A DNA stretch of 20,000 nt from an uncultured virus (IMG/VR IMGVR_UViG_3300042554_002206). Taxonomy: Duplodnaviria > Heunggongvirae > Uroviricota > Caudoviricetes. How positions within the stretch are numbered: position 1 is the stretch's first letter; each line of letters begins with the position of its first letter. Of the stretch, positions 1,670 through 15,860 are shown piece by piece. The translations under genes and the position numbers were made by a program. The stretch is from IMG/VR virus record IMGVR_UViG_3300042554_002206, one strand, 5' to 3'. Below the pieces are notes generated by a model. The model did not search any database, had not been told where the DNA came from, and saw only the letters and a list, made by a program, of their open reading frames with translations.

Positions 1670-1959
1670 GTCACCGGCCCCACGCGATGCACAGCCCAGT
1701 AGGCGCCGGGCGCCAGTTGCGGCCCGCTCTGCAACCTGCAGTCCAGCAACTGGTGTTCCAGCAGTGCCGAGATGCGCCGAAGGACCGTGCCTTGATCGCA
1801 CGCCCACCGGGCCTGCAGTTCCAGTGATGTGATCTCCGGGATCAGCCCTGCCCGGATGCGCATACCCAGCCATTGCGACAGATCGAGGCAGTCGAGCAGG
1901 GTGATGGGTGGCACATAAGCGCGGCGTGCCAGCAGGGTGCGAACCAGGTCGGGGGTCAC
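1666..1959 (-). CDS. Small putative (winged) HTH protein
   Basis: GTG at 1959 overlaps the tmk stop (GTGA) and the stop overlaps the terL ATG. ITSLELQARWACDQGTVLRRISALLEHQLL resembles an HTH. Confidence 0.6.
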   Translation of the reverse strand: MTPDLVRTLLARRAYVPPITLLDCLDLSQWLGMRIRAGLIPEITSLELQARWACDQGTVLRRISALLEHQLLDCRLQSGPQLAPGAYWAVHRVGPVT

Positions 1960-2612
1960 GCCTGCCCCCCAAACTGGCGGAGCATGGCGCGGCAACAGGC
2001 CTCCGTCACAGCAGCCTCACCGTGCTCCGCCTTGATGAGGGTCCAGCTCTGCTGGCCAGCCACGGCGGCAAAGCCCCGTCTCACACGAGACAGGAATTCC
2101 CACCCTCCCGCCTCAATGCGGTCGGACGACTGCCCGCCACGGCGCCGGATCGACTCGGCCACGGACACATCCAGCCAGAGGGTGAGATCGGCCATCAGGC
2201 CGCCTGTGGCCAGAAACTCCAGTGCTCTAATCAGGCCCAAGTCCAAGCCCCTGCCATAGCCCTGATAGGCGGCGGTCGATCCGGTGAAGCGATCGCACAG
2301 CACCCAATCCCCAGCTTCAAGCGCTGGCCGCAGGACGGTTTCGACGTGCTGGGCCCGATCGGCGGCATACAGCAGCAGCTCTGCACGGGGCACCGGGGCC
2401 GCTTCCCCAGGAGGGTGCAGCAGCAGCTCCCGCAACGCCTGGCCCAGGGCGGTGCCCCCAGGCTCACGGCTCACAACCACGCGGGCGCCGGGGGGCATCA
2501 GGCCGCTGGTGGGTAGCCATTGGCGCAAGGCCTCCAGTTGCGTGGTCTTGCCACAGTTGTCGATCCCTTCGAGGACAATGAAGCGGCCACGGGCTGGGGT
2601 TGGGTTGGTCAT
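1956..2612 (-). CDS. tmk: Thymidylate kinase
   Basis: FIVLEGIDNCGKTT P-loop, REPGGT, LLYAADRAQH, VLCDRF..ST.AYQG and DLTLWLDV motifs. Confidence 0.95.
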   Translation of the reverse strand: MTNPTPARGRFIVLEGIDNCGKTTQLEALRQWLPTSGLMPPGARVVVSREPGGTALGQALRELLLHPPGEAAPVPRAELLLYAADRAQHVETVLRPALEAGDWVLCDRFTGSTAAYQGYGRGLDLGLIRALEFLATGGLMADLTLWLDVSVAESIRRRGGQSSDRIEAGGWEFLSRVRRGFAAVAGQQSWTLIKAEHGEAAVTEACCRAMLRQFGGQA

Positions 2613-3115
2613 GCCTCCCCCTCTCCCTCATGTGTCTCCAGTCCACGGGCATTGATCTGCAGCATCACCCGACGCTCATCCTCCGGCGTCAGGCCAGCAG
2701 CGGCGATGGCGTCAACCACGGCGGCGACGGTCTTGCGTTCGGTGCGACGTTCGGCGGCGGCATCGCTGAAGTCATCACGGAAGAATGGATGATGGGTCAG
2801 GAACCAGGTGGCAGCCGTGGTGCTGCCGTTGGAGGATTGTTCCTTAAGATTGGTAAGGTAGTTTTTGCCCGTATTTATCCATCCTTCATGGATGGTGTTA
2901 CGAAACTGTGCTCGCAAATCATCGTCCGGAAGGTCTTTCCCCTCTTTGATCCAGCAGTGGGCGGTCTTCCTGCTAATTCCAAGGCTTGCCGCGATCATCG
3001 TCACGGTCGCTCCTGTTTCCGCCATGGTTCCAGCCCCTTTGACCATGGCGGCTGTCAGCAAGGATGGGCGGCCACCGGCTGACACAGGCGATAACGCGGC
3101 GTTACGGTCGTGCAT
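2609..3115 (-). CDS. HTH protein, probable terminase small subunit
   Basis: N-terminal GRPSLLT followed by an HTH (IAASLGISRKTAHCWIKEG), a helical body with AATWFL, and a position upstream of terL. Confidence 0.6.
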   Translation of the reverse strand: MHDRNAALSPVSAGGRPSLLTAAMVKGAGTMAETGATVTMIAASLGISRKTAHCWIKEGKDLPDDDLRAQFRNTIHEGWINTGKNYLTNLKEQSSNGSTTAATWFLTHHPFFRDDFSDAAAERRTERKTVAAVVDAIAAAGLTPEDERRVMLQINARGLETHEGEGEA

Positions 3116-3152
3116 AGTCTAAGCCATTCCTGCGGTTTTGGAAGGGTATCGG

Positions 3153-3668
3153 TCAACCGCGCGATGCTCGGACGGTTTGATCCCCGTTGTAGCGGCCAGT
3201 TTCTGCGTAGCTTGCCAATGGCGTCGAATCCATCTTCATAAACTTCATCTGCCCGATCTTGAGCCCTGGGTAGATGCCAATCCAGTGAAGCTGGCGCACG
3301 TTCTTCAGTTCAAGGGTCAGGCGGGAACCGTTCCAGCCTGGATCGCACCATCCAGCAAACAGATGCTGCAATCCCTCACGGGCGCGGGATGACTTCAGCA
3401 CGAACTGCGCGGCGATGCAATTAGGCAGGTTGAAAATGGGTTCAGCTTCGGCCAGCAGGAATTGCCCTGGCACCACGCGATAGGGATTTGCTGGGGTGTG
3501 GTTGGCAATGCAGTAAGGCACAAGGCCTGGTCCTTCGCTGGACTCGATCAGGATGTTCGATCCCAGCCGAAGGTCCAGACTTGCGGGATTTAGAAGTTCG
3601 GGGTCAAAGGGTACGACCATGCCCGATTCGCAAAGGGCACGGATTTGGAAGTCAGCCAGGACAGTCAT
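3153..3668 (-). CDS. dcd: dCTP deaminase (trimeric dUTPase superfamily)
   Basis: LNPASLDLRLG, KSSRAREGL, DPGWNGSRLTLE and IGQMKF motifs. Start at ATG 3668 (MTVLAD) overlaps the upstream stop. Confidence 0.92.
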   Translation of the reverse strand: MTVLADFQIRALCESGMVVPFDPELLNPASLDLRLGSNILIESSEGPGLVPYCIANHTPANPYRVVPGQFLLAEAEPIFNLPNCIAAQFVLKSSRAREGLQHLFAGWCDPGWNGSRLTLELKNVRQLHWIGIYPGLKIGQMKFMKMDSTPLASYAETGRYNGDQTVRASRG

Positions 3669-3838
3669 TTGGTGATGGGTTCGTAGATAGCGCGGGCTTG
3701 GTGCTGGGCGATCTGGCGGAGGTCCGTCCAGTAGGGCGCTTCGTGATTGGGGGGCAGGATCAACGCCTCGGGAATGCCTGCGGTGTTGCGCACCTTGAGG
3801 ATGCGCAGGCCCCAGCCGGGTCGCTTGGGTGTGGTCAC
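3665..3838 (-). CDS. Hypothetical protein (57 aa)
   Basis: GTG start overlaps the upstream stop (GTGA), GGAGG lies 5 nt upstream, and the stop overlaps the dcd ATG. Confidence 0.6.
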   Translation of the reverse strand: MTTPKRPGWGLRILKVRNTAGIPEALILPPNHEAPYWTDLRQIAQHQARAIYEPITK

Positions 3839-4074
3839 AGCTGCCTCCACGGTGGGTCACGTAGGAAAGCGTCAAGGTTTGCCGCTGCGCGTGTTTTTTT
3901 CATTGCTTCCCCAAAATCCCGCATCGACTGCTCGGCTTGCTTGACTGCCGGAGTCAATGCTTTGGCCATAGCAGCGCCGTTGGATAGAACCTGGGATGTG
4001 AGCCCGCAAAGTCGTGCGTGGTCAAAGTCGGCGAGGTTGGCCATTTTCGTGGCGCCAGGAAATTGATCGGTCAT
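3835..4074 (-). CDS. Hypothetical protein
   Basis: Lies within ORF 3835..4245. Start at ATG 4074 (MTDQFPG) or alternatively 4119. The stop is coupled to the next gene. Confidence 0.5.
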   Translation of the reverse strand: MTDQFPGATKMANLADFDHARLCGLTSQVLSNGAAMAKALTPAVKQAEQSMRDFGEAMKKTRAAANLDAFLRDPPWRQL

Positions 4075-9861: not shown

Positions 9862-10620
9862 TTAGGCGGTGCGACTCAAATTGTTGTCTGCTGCCATCAC
9901 GGCTTCTGGGTCCGCAAACCCAAAAAGCGGTAGAAAAAAGAACGGCAGACCCTTGGCACGCATGACGGCGGCACCTTGGATTTCATTGGTTGCCCAGGCC
10001 ACTGCCCAGGCCGCTTCCCAGGCCGCTGCCCTGGCCGCTGCCCTGGCCGCTGCCCTGGCCGCTTCCCTGGCCGCTGCCCTGGCCGCTTCCCAGGCCGCTT
10101 CCCCGGCCGCTTCCCCGGCCGCTTCCCAGGCCGCTTCCCCGGCCGCTTCCCCGGCCGCTTCCCAGGCCGCTTCCCAGGCCGCTGCCCCGGCCGCTTCCCA
10201 GGCCGCTTCCCAGGCCGCTGCCCTGGCCGCTTCCCTGGCCGCTTCCCCGGCCGCTGCCCTGGCCGCTGCTGTCATGCGGTCAAGGTGCCGCCAAAACGCA
10301 AGTACGCACTGCGCTTGGTCACCCAATACTTGTTGGGGTTTGCGAATAACGCTAGTCGGCGCACCATCTTGGCGGTCGTTCACGATGCGCAGCAAAACAG
10401 AATGAGCGCGACTGATACCAAAAAGCTCAGCCACTCGCTTGTCGGCAGCTGCCTGCGTGTAATCGCGCAAAGCTGCTGAAGTTACGCCATCCAAGAAATG
10501 CAGCGCCTGACCCTGTGCGCACATGCACCCATTTTCAGAGACAAGGCTGCCCTTGAAAGGTATGTTTCCAGGCCAATAATCAAGAAGCTCGTTAACAGTT
10601 TTGGGTGTAATAGTTGTCAT
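9862..10620 (-). CDS. Phage protein with Ala-rich tetrapeptide repeat (AAWE/AAGE/AARA), paralog B2
   Basis: Conserved N-domain (YWPG.IPFKGSLV..CMCAQGQ.LH) and C-cap (NEIQGAAVMRAKG..F.FLPLFGF) shared with 11145..11798. ATG 10620 aligns with the paralog start. Confidence 0.8.
   Translation of the reverse strand: MTTITPKTVNELLDYWPGNIPFKGSLVSENGCMCAQGQALHFLDGVTSAALRDYTQAAADKRVAELFGISRAHSVLLRIVNDRQDGAPTSVIRKPQQVLGDQAQCVLAFWRHLDRMTAAARAAAGEAAREAARAAAWEAAWEAAGAAAWEAAWEAAGEAAGEAAWEAAGEAAGEAAWEAARAAAREAARAAARAAARAAAWEAAWAVAWATNEIQGAAVMRAKGLPFFFLPLFGFADPEAVMAADNNLSRTA
9991..10270. repeat. 12-nt coding tandem repeat (ggccgct(t/g)ccc(a/c/t)), about 23 units
   Basis: Directly visible; encodes the tetrapeptide repeat on the - strand. 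Confidence 0.95.
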
Positions 10621-10657
10621 TTTGCAAAAAGGCAAGGTGGATTGGAAAGCGCAGCAA

Positions 10658-11144: not shown

Positions 11145-11798
11145 TTAGACAACTGCCATCACGGCTTCTGGGTCCGCAAACCCAAAAAGCGGCAGGAAGT
11201 AAAACGCCTGGCCCTTGGCACGCATAACGGCGGCGCCTTGAATTTCGTTTGAGGCCCCTGCGGCGGCCCATGCGGCGTCCCTTGCGGCGTCCCCTGCGGC
11301 GTCCCTTGCGGCGGCCCATGCGGCGGCCCCTGCGGCGGCCCATGCGGCGGCCCCTGCGGCGGCCCATGCGGCGTCCCTTGCGGCGGCCCCTGCGGCGGCC
11401 CCTGCGGCGGCCCATGCGGCGGCCCATGCGGCGGCCCTGTTTTTGTCGTCTATTTGGTCAAGATGCCGCCAAAACGCCAGCACTACATGCGACTGGTCGC
11501 CTAACACCTGTTCGGGATTACGAATGACGCTAGTCGGCGCACCATCTTGTCTGTCGTTGACAATTGCCAGCAAGGCTGAATGGGCGTTACTAATACCAAA
11601 AATCTCGGCGACCCGTTTGTCGGCGTCGCTCTGTTTAATATCGCGCAATTCTTCTACGCTTTTTTTATCCAAAAAATGCAGCACTTGGCCTTGAGCGCAC
11701 ATGCAGGACCCGTCTTCATTGACAAGGCTTCCTTTGAAAGGAATGTGGCCAGGCCAGTAGTCAAGAAGCTCTTCCACTGTCGATGGAGTGGTTTTCAT
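11145..11798 (-). CDS. Phage protein with Ala-rich tetrapeptide repeat (AAWA/AAGA/AARD), paralog B1
   Basis: Paralog of 9862..10620; ATG 11798 (MKTTPST). Confidence 0.8.
   Translation of the reverse strand: MKTTPSTVEELLDYWPGHIPFKGSLVNEDGSCMCAQGQVLHFLDKKSVEELRDIKQSDADKRVAEIFGISNAHSALLAIVNDRQDGAPTSVIRNPEQVLGDQSHVVLAFWRHLDQIDDKNRAAAWAAAWAAAGAAAGAAARDAAWAAAGAAAWAAAGAAAWAAARDAAGDAARDAAWAAAGASNEIQGAAVMRAKGQAFYFLPLFGFADPEAVMAVV
11255..11437. repeat. 12-nt coding tandem repeat (tgcggcg(g/t)ccc(a/c/t)), about 15 units
   Basis: Directly visible. Confidence 0.95.
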
Positions 11799-11845
11799 TT
11801 GAAATAACGAAGAATGGTGTGGTTTAGAAGGCGCAGCAAGATCAA

Positions 11846-12133
11846 TCACCGGCGCAACATGCTGGGGTTGCGCTCCGCAGCCGTGGGGCCCTGATCGTCG
11901 GGCTCGCTGTCGTACTGCTCTTGGGGCAGGTAGACGGTGATCCGGTAGGGGCGACCGTCCTTGTCGTAACTGGCTAGGTCAGCCTCAAGGTCAGCGAGCC
12001 ACGAGGGGTCCCCAACCTTGTCGTTTTCAATGAAGAAGTGCAGGTCGTCGGTGTCACCTTGCTCAATCTGCGTATCAGTGCAGAGGGGATGGCGACCGAT
12101 GGTGGTCAGGGCGTCGGCTAAGGCGGTGGTCAC
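11846..12133 (-). CDS. Acidic hypothetical protein ('gene A', intact copy)
   Basis: C-terminal ~80 aa are nearly identical to those of 10658..11107. GTG 12133 is chosen because a promoter-like sequence and the leader motif lie just upstream. The ORF track starts at 12226. Confidence 0.6.
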   Translation of the reverse strand: MTTALADALTTIGRHPLCTDTQIEQGDTDDLHFFIENDKVGDPSWLADLEADLASYDKDGRPYRITVYLPQEQYDSEPDDQGPTAAERNPSMLRR

Positions 12134-12296: not shown

Positions 12297-12785
12297 CTAT
12301 GGGCTAGCCCGCTCCCGGCGCAGGGCCAGTCCCCGCAACGCCAAGGCCACACGCACGTCGTTCAACGATTGATGGCCAAAGTTGCGCAAGCTCAACAGGT
12401 CCGCGCCTGAGAGTTTGACCAGGTCGTCAACGGTGGTGATCCCTTGCCGCTTCAGCGAGCCGTAAGCGTACGCGCCAAGCTCCAGCTCCTGGATAGGCAC
12501 AGTGGCTGGTGGTGCCTGGGATATTTCCAGCCGGACTGCTGCCAGCTCAGTTTCGATGCCATCCAGTCGGGCTTCCAGTGTGATAGGCACCAACGGCTGA
12601 TCTGATGCGCCCATAATTGGCGACTGCTTTTTCTTGGCAATCCGAACTTTCTCCTCCGTCGTGAAGGTAAATCTGCAAGTTTTGCAGATGCAGCGGCGGC
12701 GGATAGCAGCGCAACTGGGCTCGTAGCGAGACTCCAATACACGCCGTTCAAAGCCTTTGCAGTTGGGGTTGGGGCAAGGGAACAT
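12297..12785 (-). CDS. NrdR-like Zn ribbon fused to an RNA polymerase alpha-CTD-like domain
   Basis: CPNPNC...RVLESR...AIRRRCICKTCRFTFTTEE matches the NrdR N-terminus. PIQELEL...SLKRQGITTVDDLV...DLLSLRNFGHQSLNDV matches the alpha-CTD. Confidence 0.85.
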   Translation of the reverse strand: MFPCPNPNCKGFERRVLESRYEPSCAAIRRRCICKTCRFTFTTEEKVRIAKKKQSPIMGASDQPLVPITLEARLDGIETELAAVRLEISQAPPATVPIQELELGAYAYGSLKRQGITTVDDLVKLSGADLLSLRNFGHQSLNDVRVALALRGLALRRERASP

Positions 12786-12816: not shown

Positions 12817-13197
12817 TCAACTGCGAGCCCGTCCAGTCCGTGGCAGCAGTCGCTCCTTCCGCAACCTCAAGCCTCGCAGATGCAAGGCCAGCTGCACTTC
12901 GCCTAGTGAGTTGGGGCCGAAGTTGCGAATGTCCAGAAGGTCAAAGTTGCTGTAGGTGAGCAGTGTGGCCAGGGTGTGGATCCCTTTGCGTCTCAGTGCG
13001 CCGTAGGCCCGCGTTGATAGCTTCAGATCCTCGATTGGCACCGGGGCGGGCTGCGGGTTTATCGCCGCTCTCACCCGCGCCAATTCGGCCTCAATGCGCT
13101 GCAACTGGCGGGCGGATTCGCCGTCTAGTCGTTGGTCGTCGGGACTGGTGGGCGGTTGATCGCGGATTGCGACGCCGCAGTGGGGGCAGGTGAGCAT
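12817..13197 (-). CDS. RNA polymerase alpha-CTD-like domain protein with N-terminal CPHC
   Basis: VPIEDLKLSTRAYGALRRKGIHTL..LL.YS..DLLDIRNFGPNSLGEV. Confidence 0.85.
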   Translation of the reverse strand: MLTCPHCGVAIRDQPPTSPDDQRLDGESARQLQRIEAELARVRAAINPQPAPVPIEDLKLSTRAYGALRRKGIHTLATLLTYSNFDLLDIRNFGPNSLGEVQLALHLRGLRLRKERLLPRTGRARS

Positions 13198-13928: not shown

Positions 13929-14576
13929 ATGGCAATCACCACCAAGGCCAAAACCCAGGCACCGGAAGAGGCAATCACCATCAAGGCACCCGATTTCAGG
14001 CTCATTGAGATCAAAATCAAGGGCACCAGTCCATTGGTGATCAACAGATTCAGTGCAAAAGCTATGGAGCAGATGAAAGCCACGCAGGAAGCGGGCAGCA
14101 CCGCCAGGGGCAAGAAGGTGCGCGAGGCGAAGGATTTTACCGCTCTTTTCGAGAGCGCCAAGCACGTCGCGGGTGAAGGATGGGAGGGTATCCATGCCGC
14201 TGCATTCAGGAACGGCGCCATTTCCGCCTGTCGTACCGTCGGGGTCAAAATGACCCACGCCAAATTGGCATTCAGCGTGTACGCCGATGGCTTTGACCGG
14301 GTTGACGGCGCCCCTCTGGTCCGGCTGACGGAGGGGGAAGCAGAGGAATGGACGGCCCCTACTCGTAATGCCACGGGCGTAATTGATCTACGCTGCCGTC
14401 CGATGTATCGGGAGTGGGCGGCAAACTTAAGAATCCGGTACGACGCCGGAATGTTTACTTCGGCCGACCTGGTCAACCTGATCAGCCGAGTGGGTCTTCA
14501 GGTTGGTATCGGCGAGGGGCGACCGGACAGCAAAAACAGCGCGGGACTGGGCTTCGGCCTGTTCGAGATCGTCTGA
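13929..14576 (+). CDS. Stand-alone RAMP/Cas7-like RNA-binding protein (215 aa), putative effector of the adjacent array (Vipr-like)
   Basis: RAMP hallmarks in order: first strand plus SPL (IEIKIKGTSPLVIN), helix GIHAAAFRNGAISA, and a terminal Gly-rich loop VGIGEGRPDSKNSAGLGFGLFEI. ATG 13929. No cas1/cas2 or other cas genes nearby. Confidence 0.8.
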   Translation: MAITTKAKTQAPEEAITIKAPDFRLIEIKIKGTSPLVINRFSAKAMEQMKATQEAGSTARGKKVREAKDFTALFESAKHVAGEGWEGIHAAAFRNGAISACRTVGVKMTHAKLAFSVYADGFDRVDGAPLVRLTEGEAEEWTAPTRNATGVIDLRCRPMYREWAANLRIRYDAGMFTSADLVNLISRVGLQVGIGEGRPDSKNSAGLGFGLFEIV

Positions 14577-14613
14577 TTGATCATGGCCCTGGCGATTGCT
14601 TTACGACTGCCAG

Positions 14614-15230
14614 GGCTTGGCATGGCTGGTTAGGCAAGGCGCGGCGTTCCAAGGTTTTGCAGGCATGGCTTTGCAAGGCTCGGCACGATGCGGCAAGGAC
14701 TGGCAGGCGTGGAACGGTCAGGTTGGCCCGGAAGGGCAGGCATGGCTTCGCAAGTCACGGCCTGTGCAGGCATGGCTGGCTAGGTGTGGTCGGGATAGTG
14801 CAAGGTACGGCGATGCAGGCAAGGCAAGGCCCGGAGAGCCACGAACAGGCGAGGCAGGCGAGGTATGGCGTTGCCAGGTCAGTCGCGGCAGGTGAGGCAG
14901 CTATGGATGGGCCAGGATCGGATTGGCAAGCGTGGCGTGGACCGGCATGGTTCTGCTCGGCACTGCAGGCACGGCGTGGCGAGGCCAGGTGCGTTCGAGG
15001 AACGGCATGGCACGGCAGGCATGGTTAGGCAAGGCAGCGATTGGTAGCGCACGGCAGGCAAGGCACGGTAGGCCGGGATTGGCACGGCAGGCATGACAAG
15101 GCACGGCGTGGACTGGAGAGGTGCGGCATCGCAGGCGTGGCTAGGACTGGTTTGTAAGGCATGGCAAGGAAAGGAAGGGCAGGCGTGGCCTGGATTGACG
15201 GCGCAAGGCACCGCAAGGCATTGCCGGCGT
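14614..15230 (+). repeat. Non-coding GGY-NN pentamer array with ~14-15 units, putative guide-RNA precursor
   Basis: 5-nt periodicity, e.g. ggcat gacaa ggcac ggcgt ggact ggaga ggtgc ggcat. GCAGG occurs at 14659, 14703, 14736, 14766, 14815, 14854, 14888, 14965, 15015, 15054, 15087, 15131 and 15179, with variant GCAAG at 14926. Confidence 0.88.
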
Positions 15231-15254: not shown

Positions 15255-15284
15255 GAATGGGGGCTTGAATGGGCCCCCTCATTC
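15255..15284 (+). other. GC-rich hairpin closing the array
   Basis: GAATG-GGGGC ... GCCCC-(CT)-CATTC inverted repeat without a U-tract. Confidence 0.6.
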
Positions 15285-15302: not shown

Positions 15303-15860
15303 ATGAATTTCACCAAAGCCGAACCCGAATTCACTTTCAGGATCGAAGATGGCGATGAGGTGCTAGGCATTGATGCCCAGACGGCTGGCAGCGAACTAGA
15401 CCGCATTCGCCGCCGTGATGGCACGATCAAGCCTGCAGCGGTAGTCGATGAAGCCCGCCCCGAAGATGCGCCACTGCACCCGGCGTTTGAATGGCGCGAT
15501 CCGGTGGCGGCCGAGCAATGGCGGGAACATCAGGCCAGCACGCTGATCAAGGTGGTGCGGGTGGTGCCAAGCGCTCAACCGGAAGAGCGGGTGGCATCGG
15601 TGCGGCCGGTGACGCAGGCGATAACGCCAGTCGTTGAGCACTATGACCCGATGACCCGTGAAGTGCAGGAAGCGGTGGGGTCAGTGGTGGAGGCCAGCCG
15701 CAAGGTTGAGCAACTGAAGCTGCGAACCCAGCGGGCGGGTGATCGCCGCAGCATGATGGCCCTTGGCGTTGCGCTTGAGATGTTGCAAGAGGCTCGGGAA
15801 GCGCTCACAAACGGTCAGCTCTCAAGCACATGGGAGCGTGAACCGCAAAAGGTTGGGTAA
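15303..15860 (+). CDS. Conserved-looking phage protein, putative accessory gene of the RAMP-array cassette (185 aa)
   Basis: ATG 15303. ELDRIRRRDG.IKPAAVVDEARPEDAPLHPAFEW.D..AAEQWREHQA..LI resembles a recurrent phage hypothetical family. Co-oriented with the RAMP gene and the array. Confidence 0.8.
   Translation: MNFTKAEPEFTFRIEDGDEVLGIDAQTAGSELDRIRRRDGTIKPAAVVDEARPEDAPLHPAFEWRDPVAAEQWREHQASTLIKVVRVVPSAQPEERVASVRPVTQAITPVVEHYDPMTREVQEAVGSVVEASRKVEQLKLRTQRAGDRRSMMALGVALEMLQEAREALTNGQLSSTWEREPQKVG

What the first reader, a model, noticed from the sequence alone, without database searches (positions are those of the whole stretch)
14614..15230. Array with an interleaved code: constant GGY triplets alternating with variable dinucleotides
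Seen: a 5-nt period in which positions 1-3 are mostly GGC/GGT (sometimes GGA or degenerate) and positions 4-5 vary freely. This differs both from a satellite and from CRISPR repeat-spacer structure. Example NN strings are AT TT AA TC AC GC AA CT (14662-14701), AA AA CC GA AC CA GA (14818-14852) and AT AA AC GT CT GA GC AT (15090-15129). Inference: the information sits in the NN positions and specifies a discontinuous target. As I recall for VIPR, the target reads NN-x-NN-x, which would ignore codon wobble positions when in frame.
Basis: partly seen in the sequence, partly recalled or inferred. Interest (0 to 1): 0.9.

Follow-up and report, generated by a model that had tools for sequence, protein, structure and literature searches.

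The report
Cyanophage VIPR array, possibly host-targeting
This five-base repeat is the guide-RNA array of a VIPR system, a CRISPR-related DNA silencer of phages described in 2026; in this freshwater cyanobacterial phage some guides best match the host's own chromosome, including its probable replication origin, which if real would be a new use of the system.

Summary
The period-5 GGY/NN pattern is real (lag-5 autocorrelation 0.47 vs 0.29±0.02 shuffled). It lies between a Vipr gene (13929-14576; only PDB sequence hit SUSP1 Vipr; RAMP fold) and a conserved accessory gene (15303-15860) in a Cyanobium-type phage. It breaks into about 15 units of 7-10 repeats with 1-nt slips, the published 'staggered' layout. 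The scan found staggered VIPR arrays before on other DNA, so the system is a new member of a known kind. The targets may be new. Of 15 guides, 8 were searched in host genomes. One matches a host NIL-ferredoxin gene 16/16 in 3 of 101 genus genomes (control 0). One matches thrC 16/18 in 87 of 101. One matches the AT-rich part of the probable oriC 16/18, about 750 bp from the thrC site. Weaker hits fall in dps, nrdJ and gatA. No convergent phage target appeared for the three guides scanned in IMG/VR. Short guides give many chance hits, so host targeting is about even odds and an oriC block about 0.35. Nothing was tested at the bench.

The parts
13929..14576 (+). vipr gene, 215 aa single-RRM RAMP protein
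   Evidence: Only PDB sequence hit is 36pp_D SUSP1 Vipr (E 0.0032; profile E 9.5e-5); model pLDDT 84; Csm/Cmr/Cas7 folds, Z up to 10.6; 4654 homologues
14585..14617 (+). 5' leader hairpin before the array
   Evidence: -22.1 kcal/mol, z -2.07, 8 of 200 shuffles as good; kept in L002-L005
14614..15230 (+). staggered vrRNA array, about 15 units of 7-10 pentamers, each ending in a 4-mer that overlaps the next unit by 1 nt
14662..14705 (+). guide B; candidate target: host NIL-domain 4Fe-4S ferredoxin gene, template strand, skip on wobble
   Evidence: 16/16 in G003, G172, G208; 15/16 in G005; control 0 in 101 genomes; G172 and G208 taken as the same gene from the near-identical matched letters only
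14739..14777 (+). guide D; weak candidate target: host dps-like (ferritin-domain) gene
   Evidence: 13/14 in G002 and G003, mismatch in last NN
14778..14817 (+). guide E (one 6-mer read as a pentamer plus one base); weak candidate target: host class II ribonucleotide reductase nrdJ
   Evidence: 13/14 in 4 of 4 host genomes, but control 5 hits in the same 4
14968..15017 (+). guide J (one 6-mer, searched with a degenerate pair); candidate target: host thrC, next to the probable oriC
   Evidence: 16/18 at one site in 87 of 101 genus genomes; control 13 hits in 101
15134..15181 (+). guide N (one internal 4-mer); candidate target: AT-rich stretch of the thrC-dnaN spacer (probable oriC unwinding region)
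   Evidence: 16/18, first 14 of 14, G003:C71:29472-29497
15182..15225 (+). guide O; weak candidate target: gatA directly upstream of dnaE
   Evidence: 14/16, one of 3 such hits in G003; not convergent at 1 mismatch in 101 genomes
15255..15284 (+). 3' hairpin between array and vap
   Evidence: conserved in L002-L005 and L008; folding energy not better than shuffles (z -0.54)
15303..15860 (+). vap-like accessory gene, 185 aa, all-helical model
   Evidence: homologue in 67 of 80 vipr loci; phrog_15946 unknown function; no Foldseek match at E<=0.001

Best explanation
A phage VIPR system with a staggered array. Shown: a Vipr-family gene, the pentamer array, a co-conserved accessory gene, and selection on the NN letters. 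Taken from the published type II system: Vipr polymerises one subunit per repeat, hides the three scaffold bases, pairs NN with dsDNA skipping every third base, and acts as a roadblock. Inferred here: the operon transcript is cut at the GCA|GG junctions into 34-50 nt guides, and at least some guides are aimed at the Cyanobium host chromosome, not only at rival phages. The clearest cases are the NIL-ferredoxin gene beside txlA-thyX and the thrC-oriC region. The likely effect is to stall host replication initiation and damp selected host genes while the phage, which has its own lambda-O-like initiator, uses the host replisome. The confidence given is for 'VIPR, with at least one guide truly aimed at the host chromosome'. 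VIPR membership alone is about 0.97.
For: Membership. Host: the 80 best tmk matches are almost all labelled Cyanobium/Synechococcus or cyanobacterial, best 78% in L081, which lies in G003. Guide B is perfect in G003 and two more genus genomes, and the reversed control has no hit at 1 mismatch in 101. Its NN letters are unchanged in L008 (80% Vipr identity) while scaffold letters changed (read by eye). J and N hit about 750 bp apart in G003; with 9 hits from 8 guides in that genome, a pair this close has a rough chance of 0.02 (my estimate). The N site follows tandem DnaA-box-like 9-mers and trio-like triplets and is the lowest-GC window (0.25) of 1700-3100. It is kept in the G003-like clade (G002, G005, G178, G208) and diverges in more distant genomes. 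L002's version of N starts with the A that G002's site has (by eye, one case). G001, the same phage, encodes an O-like initiator.
Against: Guides carry only 12-18 read bases. Guide M had 2-mismatch hits in 85 of 101 genomes with no single site, far above its reversed control, so that control understates chance. J alone has a chance rate near 0.14 per genome (14 off-site hits, 13 control hits). N is AT-rich and will favour AT-rich DNA; its control gave one hit in each of 4 host genomes at 3 mismatches, and the window's N has 4 mismatches in G002 and G005. B also has an unrelated perfect hit in G149 and 37 in IMG/VR. D, E and O are at chance level; F and M gave no convergent site in 101 genus genomes. 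7 of 15 guides were not searched in host genomes. All published phage-VIPR targets I read are mobile elements. The replication theme was noticed after the fact, and the true host strain is unknown.
Confidence: 0.55

Rival explanations
1. Ordinary VIPR: all guides aim at rival phages, satellites or other mobile elements that were not sampled or not recognised, and the host hits are chance.
For: Published targets are satellites, prophages, vipr genes and vrRNAs. Guides of related loci hit vipr and vap genes of other loci. Short guides give many chance hits. B's IMG/VR hits include six copies of one small phage ORF and two related lysin-like ORFs.
Against: B and N gave no convergent, host-consistent phage target in IMG/VR (37 and 15 scattered exact hits). 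E extended by two codons gave 8 hits, none in an open nrdJ frame. B is perfect in the genome with the best tmk match, and J and N co-locate there.
Confidence: 0.35
2. The host matches are real but serve as decoys or relics: guides copied from host DNA by a non-selective acquisition process, or used to soak up a rival's Vipr as satellite solo vrRNAs do with REP elements, with no effect on host replication.
For: Host-directed decoy guides are published (10.64898/2026.10.15.759431). Most host hits here carry 1-2 mismatches, and thrC and a ferredoxin are odd genes to silence.
Against: The sites are single-copy, poor sinks compared with about 1000 REP sites. The phage has its own vipr. NN letters are under purifying selection.
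Confidence: 0.08
3. Not a guide array: a degenerate satellite or a low-complexity coding region.
For: ORFs of 204 and 255 aa overlap the array. No RNA contig covers the array.
Against: 77 of 81 sources carrying the vipr gene have such an array on the same strand. Indels are not multiples of three. The phases differ sharply in entropy.
Confidence: 0.02

Closest known systems
VIPR systems with 'staggered' vrRNA arrays (bioRxiv 10.64898/2026.04.26.720920, Results text and fig. S18 legend)
   Same: vipr + vap + GGY/NN array; each unit's end overlaps the next unit's start by 1 nt; phage-encoded; no tail between units
   Different: The type number could not be assigned (figures and data files not seen). 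No targets of staggered arrays are given in the text I read; here the best hits are in the host chromosome.
Type II VIPR of Escherichia phage SUSP1 (10.64898/2026.04.26.720920, .720927, 2026.10.15.759431; PDB 36pp)
   Same: Thumb and G-loop residues align: R138, D177, R179 correspond to R157, E196, R198, invariant in 84 homologues
   Different: Distant in sequence (E 1e-4 by profile). W178 is glycine here. Units have 7-10 repeats against 9-16, there is no per-guide pseudoknot tail, and the scaffold is looser. SUSP1 targets a satellite recombinase.
Satellite solo vrRNAs aimed at host REP elements (10.64898/2026.10.15.759431)
   Same: vrRNAs matching host chromosomal DNA
   Different: Those are orphan decoy guides against multi-copy repeats; here a complete phage system appears to match single-copy genes and the probable origin.
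Class 1 CRISPR RAMPs (Csm3/Csm4, Cmr, Cas7)
   Same: RAMP fold, Z 8-10.6
   Different: No cas family among the 19 window ORFs scanned; no repeat-spacer layout at this array; gapped, not contiguous, pairing

Membership tests
VIPR | vipr gene: small single-RRM RAMP with thumb and G-loop | tested here: met
   (SUSP1 Vipr is the only significant PDB sequence hit)
VIPR | Scaffold-reading residues (SUSP1 R138, D177, W178, R179) | tested here: inconclusive
   R157, E196, R198 align and are invariant in 84 sequences; W178 aligns to G197; H17 and helix-1 residues lie outside the aligned stretch
VIPR | Adjacent non-coding array of alternating GGY/NN | tested here: met
   array on the same strand in 77 of 81 sources
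VIPR | Minimal locus: vipr + vap, no cas operon | tested here: met
   vap homologue in 67 of 80 loci; no cas family among 19 window ORFs in Pfam or 19 further G001 ORFs in PHROGs
VIPR | Encoded by a phage or provirus | tested here: met
   terminase, portal, tail, SSB, RusA and Rad52-like genes
VIPR | 1-nt skip target rule | tested here: inconclusive
   13 listed hits for skip 1 against 2 and 2 for skips 0 and 2 among 327 clade guides; the host searches used skip 1 only
VIPR | vrRNAs expressed, processed and bound by Vipr; silencing | not testable with these tools
   contigs of 4 lake RNA runs cover parts of vap (4 of 4) and vipr (3 of 4), not the array; contigs show no ends or strand
VIPR | Natural targets in competing mobile elements | tested here: inconclusive
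   3 of 15 guides scanned in IMG/VR, no convergent target
VIPR, staggered array | Units overlap by 1 nt; end of one is start of the next | tested here: met
   20 four-mers, 14 of them ending GCA; whole units gained or lost at these junctions in L002-L005
Type II VIPR (SUSP1, P. fulva) | 9-16 repeats followed by a conserved ~40 nt tail on each vrRNA | tested here: not met
   units of 7-10 repeats abut directly; 5 of 15 have 9 or more
Cyanobacterial oriC (candidate target) | Spacer beside dnaN with DnaA boxes, trios and AT-rich stretch | tested here: inconclusive
   thrC and dnaN confirmed; 5 of 12 box-like 9-mers of a 5 kb locus fall in the 545 bp spacer, both 1-mismatch ones among them, but the total count is not above shuffles; layout fits PMC4674748 and PMC8287927; origin activity untested

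The most novel reading that the evidence does not exclude
A cyanophage uses its RNA-guided VIPR filament against its host's chromosome: one guide clamps the unwinding region of oriC, a second sits in thrC next to it, and others sit in or beside genes of replication, nucleotide supply and DNA protection (gatA-dnaE, nrdJ, ferredoxin beside thyX, dps). That would be a programmable, wobble-proof host takeover, with guide letters tracking host strains.
Probability: 0.35. Interest if true: 0.85.

Novelty: new member of a known kind. Interest (0 to 1): 0.52.

Why it matters
As a locus it adds a cyanophage example to a family described in 2026 and already seen several times in this scan. If the host hits are real, VIPR is also a host-takeover tool, and an RNA-guided block of a bacterial origin would be a new way for a phage to stop host replication. 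It would also give a sequence-level host predictor for uncultured lake cyanophages. The close relatives L002-L008 show guides gained, lost and edited as whole units, which bears on how vrRNAs are acquired.

Tried and rejected
Self-targeting: 11 regular units searched against the window and 80 related loci under skips 0-3 gave no 1-skip excess and no window hit above 12/14; C, E, J, L and full-length N were not in that search. IMG/VR exact scans: N 15 hits, B 37 hits, scattered over unrelated low-GC contigs; E extended by two codons, 8 hits, none in an open frame. F: 2 unrelated hits in 101 genomes. O: 4 one-mismatch hits, not one site. M: many two-mismatch hits, chance. G149's perfect B hit is not the ferredoxin gene. 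Rfam: only a sub-threshold RsmY hit, so no ribozyme between units. No + strand sigma-70 promoter or convincing terminator. Units B, J, N fold no better than shuffles. vap: no Pfam or NCBIfam family, no Foldseek match at E<=0.001, Atlas neighbours all unnamed viral proteins. The lack of RNA contigs over the array says nothing. No paper held oriC+thrC+dnaN+Synechococcus together. No genome is held for the window.

Full report
Observation. The region 14614-15230 has a strong 5-base period: lag-5 autocorrelation 0.471 against 0.292±0.017 in 1000 shuffles, found nowhere else in the window. Parsed into words it gives 105 five-mers, 20 four-mers and 2 six-mers; phase entropies are 0.66, 0.60, 1.32, 1.86 and 1.84 bits. 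Most four-mers mark a GCA|GG junction where the phase slips by one. Reading the few internal four- and six-mers as damaged scaffold (my judgement, helped by relatives) gives about 15 units of 7-10 repeats.

The locus. Upstream on the same strand is a 215 aa gene (13929-14576) with no Pfam family and 4654 homologues. Its only significant PDB sequence hit is SUSP1 Vipr, 36pp_D (E 0.0032; 9.5e-5 with an 84-sequence profile). The model (pLDDT 84) matches Csm, Cmr and Cas7 RAMPs. Three of the four thumb and G-loop residues I could align to the cryo-EM paper's list are kept; the stacking tryptophan is glycine, which may explain the looser scaffold (inference). Downstream is a 185 aa helical gene with a homologue in 67 of 80 vipr loci. 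77 of 81 sources have an array on the vipr strand. The window is phage early-gene and packaging DNA. The record G001 is 99.7-100% identical to the window over most of it and adds portal, tail, sigma factor and an O-like replication initiator. No integrase or replicative polymerase was among the 19 ORFs I scanned there, but the record is 77% complete. The tmk gene points to a freshwater Cyanobium/Synechococcus host, best match in G003. Lake RNA runs hold contigs over parts of vipr and vap, none over the array; this shows presence in RNA libraries only.

Evolution of the array. L002-L005 (95-98% Vipr identity) share most units and gain or lose whole units at the junctions. NN positions differ at 66 of 686 aligned sites, position 3 at 56 of 342, and vipr third codon positions at 153 of 810. 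In L006 the figures are 18 of 110 NN sites against 88 of 168 third positions. Only units that aligned at 72% or better were counted, which favours conservation, but the contrast with position 3 inside the same units points to selection on NN.

Targets. No self-target was found for the 11 units tested. Eight guides were searched in host genomes under the 1-nt skip rule, each with a reversed control. B is 16/16 on the template strand of a NIL-domain 4Fe-4S ferredoxin gene beside txlA and thyX in G003. It is also perfect in G172 and G208 and 15/16 in G005: 4 of 101 genus genomes, control 0. In the wider family 8 of 151 genomes had a hit, control 4, including one unrelated perfect hit. J is 16/18 in thrC in 87 of 101 genomes; 14 further hits lie elsewhere and the control has 13. 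I confirmed the gene in G003 and saw dnaN downstream in 13 of 14 aligned genomes. N is 16/18, first 14 of 14, in the thrC-dnaN spacer of G003, about 750 bp from J's site; only 4 host genomes and G001 were searched. That site follows two box-like 9-mers and trio-like triplets and is the most AT-rich window nearby. This is the layout described for cyanobacterial origins beside dnaN (PMC4674748) and for the basal unwinding module (PMC8287927). By eye the site is kept in G002, G005, G178 and G208 with 12-13 of the window guide's first 14 letters matching, and L002's guide carries G002's first letter. D (dps-like gene), E (nrdJ) and O (gatA upstream of dnaE) match at 13/14, 13/14 and 14/16, which is chance level for their length. 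F and M gave no convergent site. Seven guides (14628, 14706, 14857, 14891, 14929, 15018, 15057) were not searched in host genomes, and no shuffled-guide scan of a whole host genome was made, so significance rests on reversed controls and rough estimates. M shows that these controls can understate chance. In IMG/VR, B, N and an extended E gave no convergent target.

Mechanism. Filament assembly, gapped pairing and roadblock silencing are taken from type II VIPR. Cutting at the junctions follows the staggered-array legend and is untested here. That mismatches cluster in the last repeat (D, E, J, N, and B in G005) suggests the 3' end is read loosely (inference). Host targeting, and an origin block that frees the replisome for a phage with its own initiator, are inference.

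What is known. I read 10.64898/2026.04.26.720920 whole plus supplement passages; parts 1-2 of 6 of .720927; parts 1-3 of 8 and passages of 2026.10.15.759431; passages of 2026.10.21.760802, PMC4674748, PMC8287927 and PMC4284462; PMC3561973 as a listing only. Figures, data files and bioRxiv supplements were not visible. They may list chromosomal targets: 18 of 66 P. fulva targets are not assigned to prophages in the text. In what I read, the only host-directed guides are satellite decoys against REP elements; searches showed no paper on VIPR against host genes or origins. That the ferredoxin is the Fed9 orthologue is recalled, not tested. Earlier notes of this scan describe staggered VIPR arrays on other DNA; none listed names a host origin.

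Verdict. A real VIPR locus of a published layout: new member of a known kind. The candidate host targets lift it above a routine example, at about 0.55 for some true host targeting and 0.35 for the origin-centred takeover. Interest 0.52.

Noticed in passing
window 12297-12785 and 12817-13197 (-): Two adjacent genes each carry an RNA polymerase alpha C-terminal domain, one fused to an NrdR-like zinc ribbon; possible host-transcription takeover factors.
   Followed up: no
window 9862-10635 and 11145-11849 (-): Two paralogous proteins with Trp-Ala-rich tandem repeats inside an 82%-identical duplicated block.
   Followed up: no
L044:5107 guide vs L022:6450; L079:6693 guide vs L006:7824: Guides of related phages match the vipr gene (16/18) and the vap gene (18/22) of other loci under the 1-nt skip; possible anti-VIPR guides.
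   Followed up: no
L012:4584 and L013:6747: Phages with 71-72% Vipr identity carry a unit like guide B whose decoded codons still fit the same ferredoxin-like stretch with one residue changed.
   Followed up: partly
L004:7087-7173 and L005:7059-7145: An 88-base stretch holding a new unit replaces part of a unit and looks stitched from pieces of neighbouring units; a hint at how guides arise.
   Followed up: no
BK059895.1 Cyanophage Cy-LDV1 31484-32107; Mycobacterium and Gordonia phages: Named phages carry homologues annotated as hypothetical (55% and 30-34% identity); the mycobacteriophages are cultured and could be test systems.
   Followed up: no
window 1956-3875 (-): Host-like thymidylate kinase and a dCTP deaminase flank the small terminase gene.
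   Followed up: partly
L019-L023, L055, L057, L071, L079, L080: In these loci an array lies upstream of vipr, or on both sides; array position varies within the clade.
   Followed up: no
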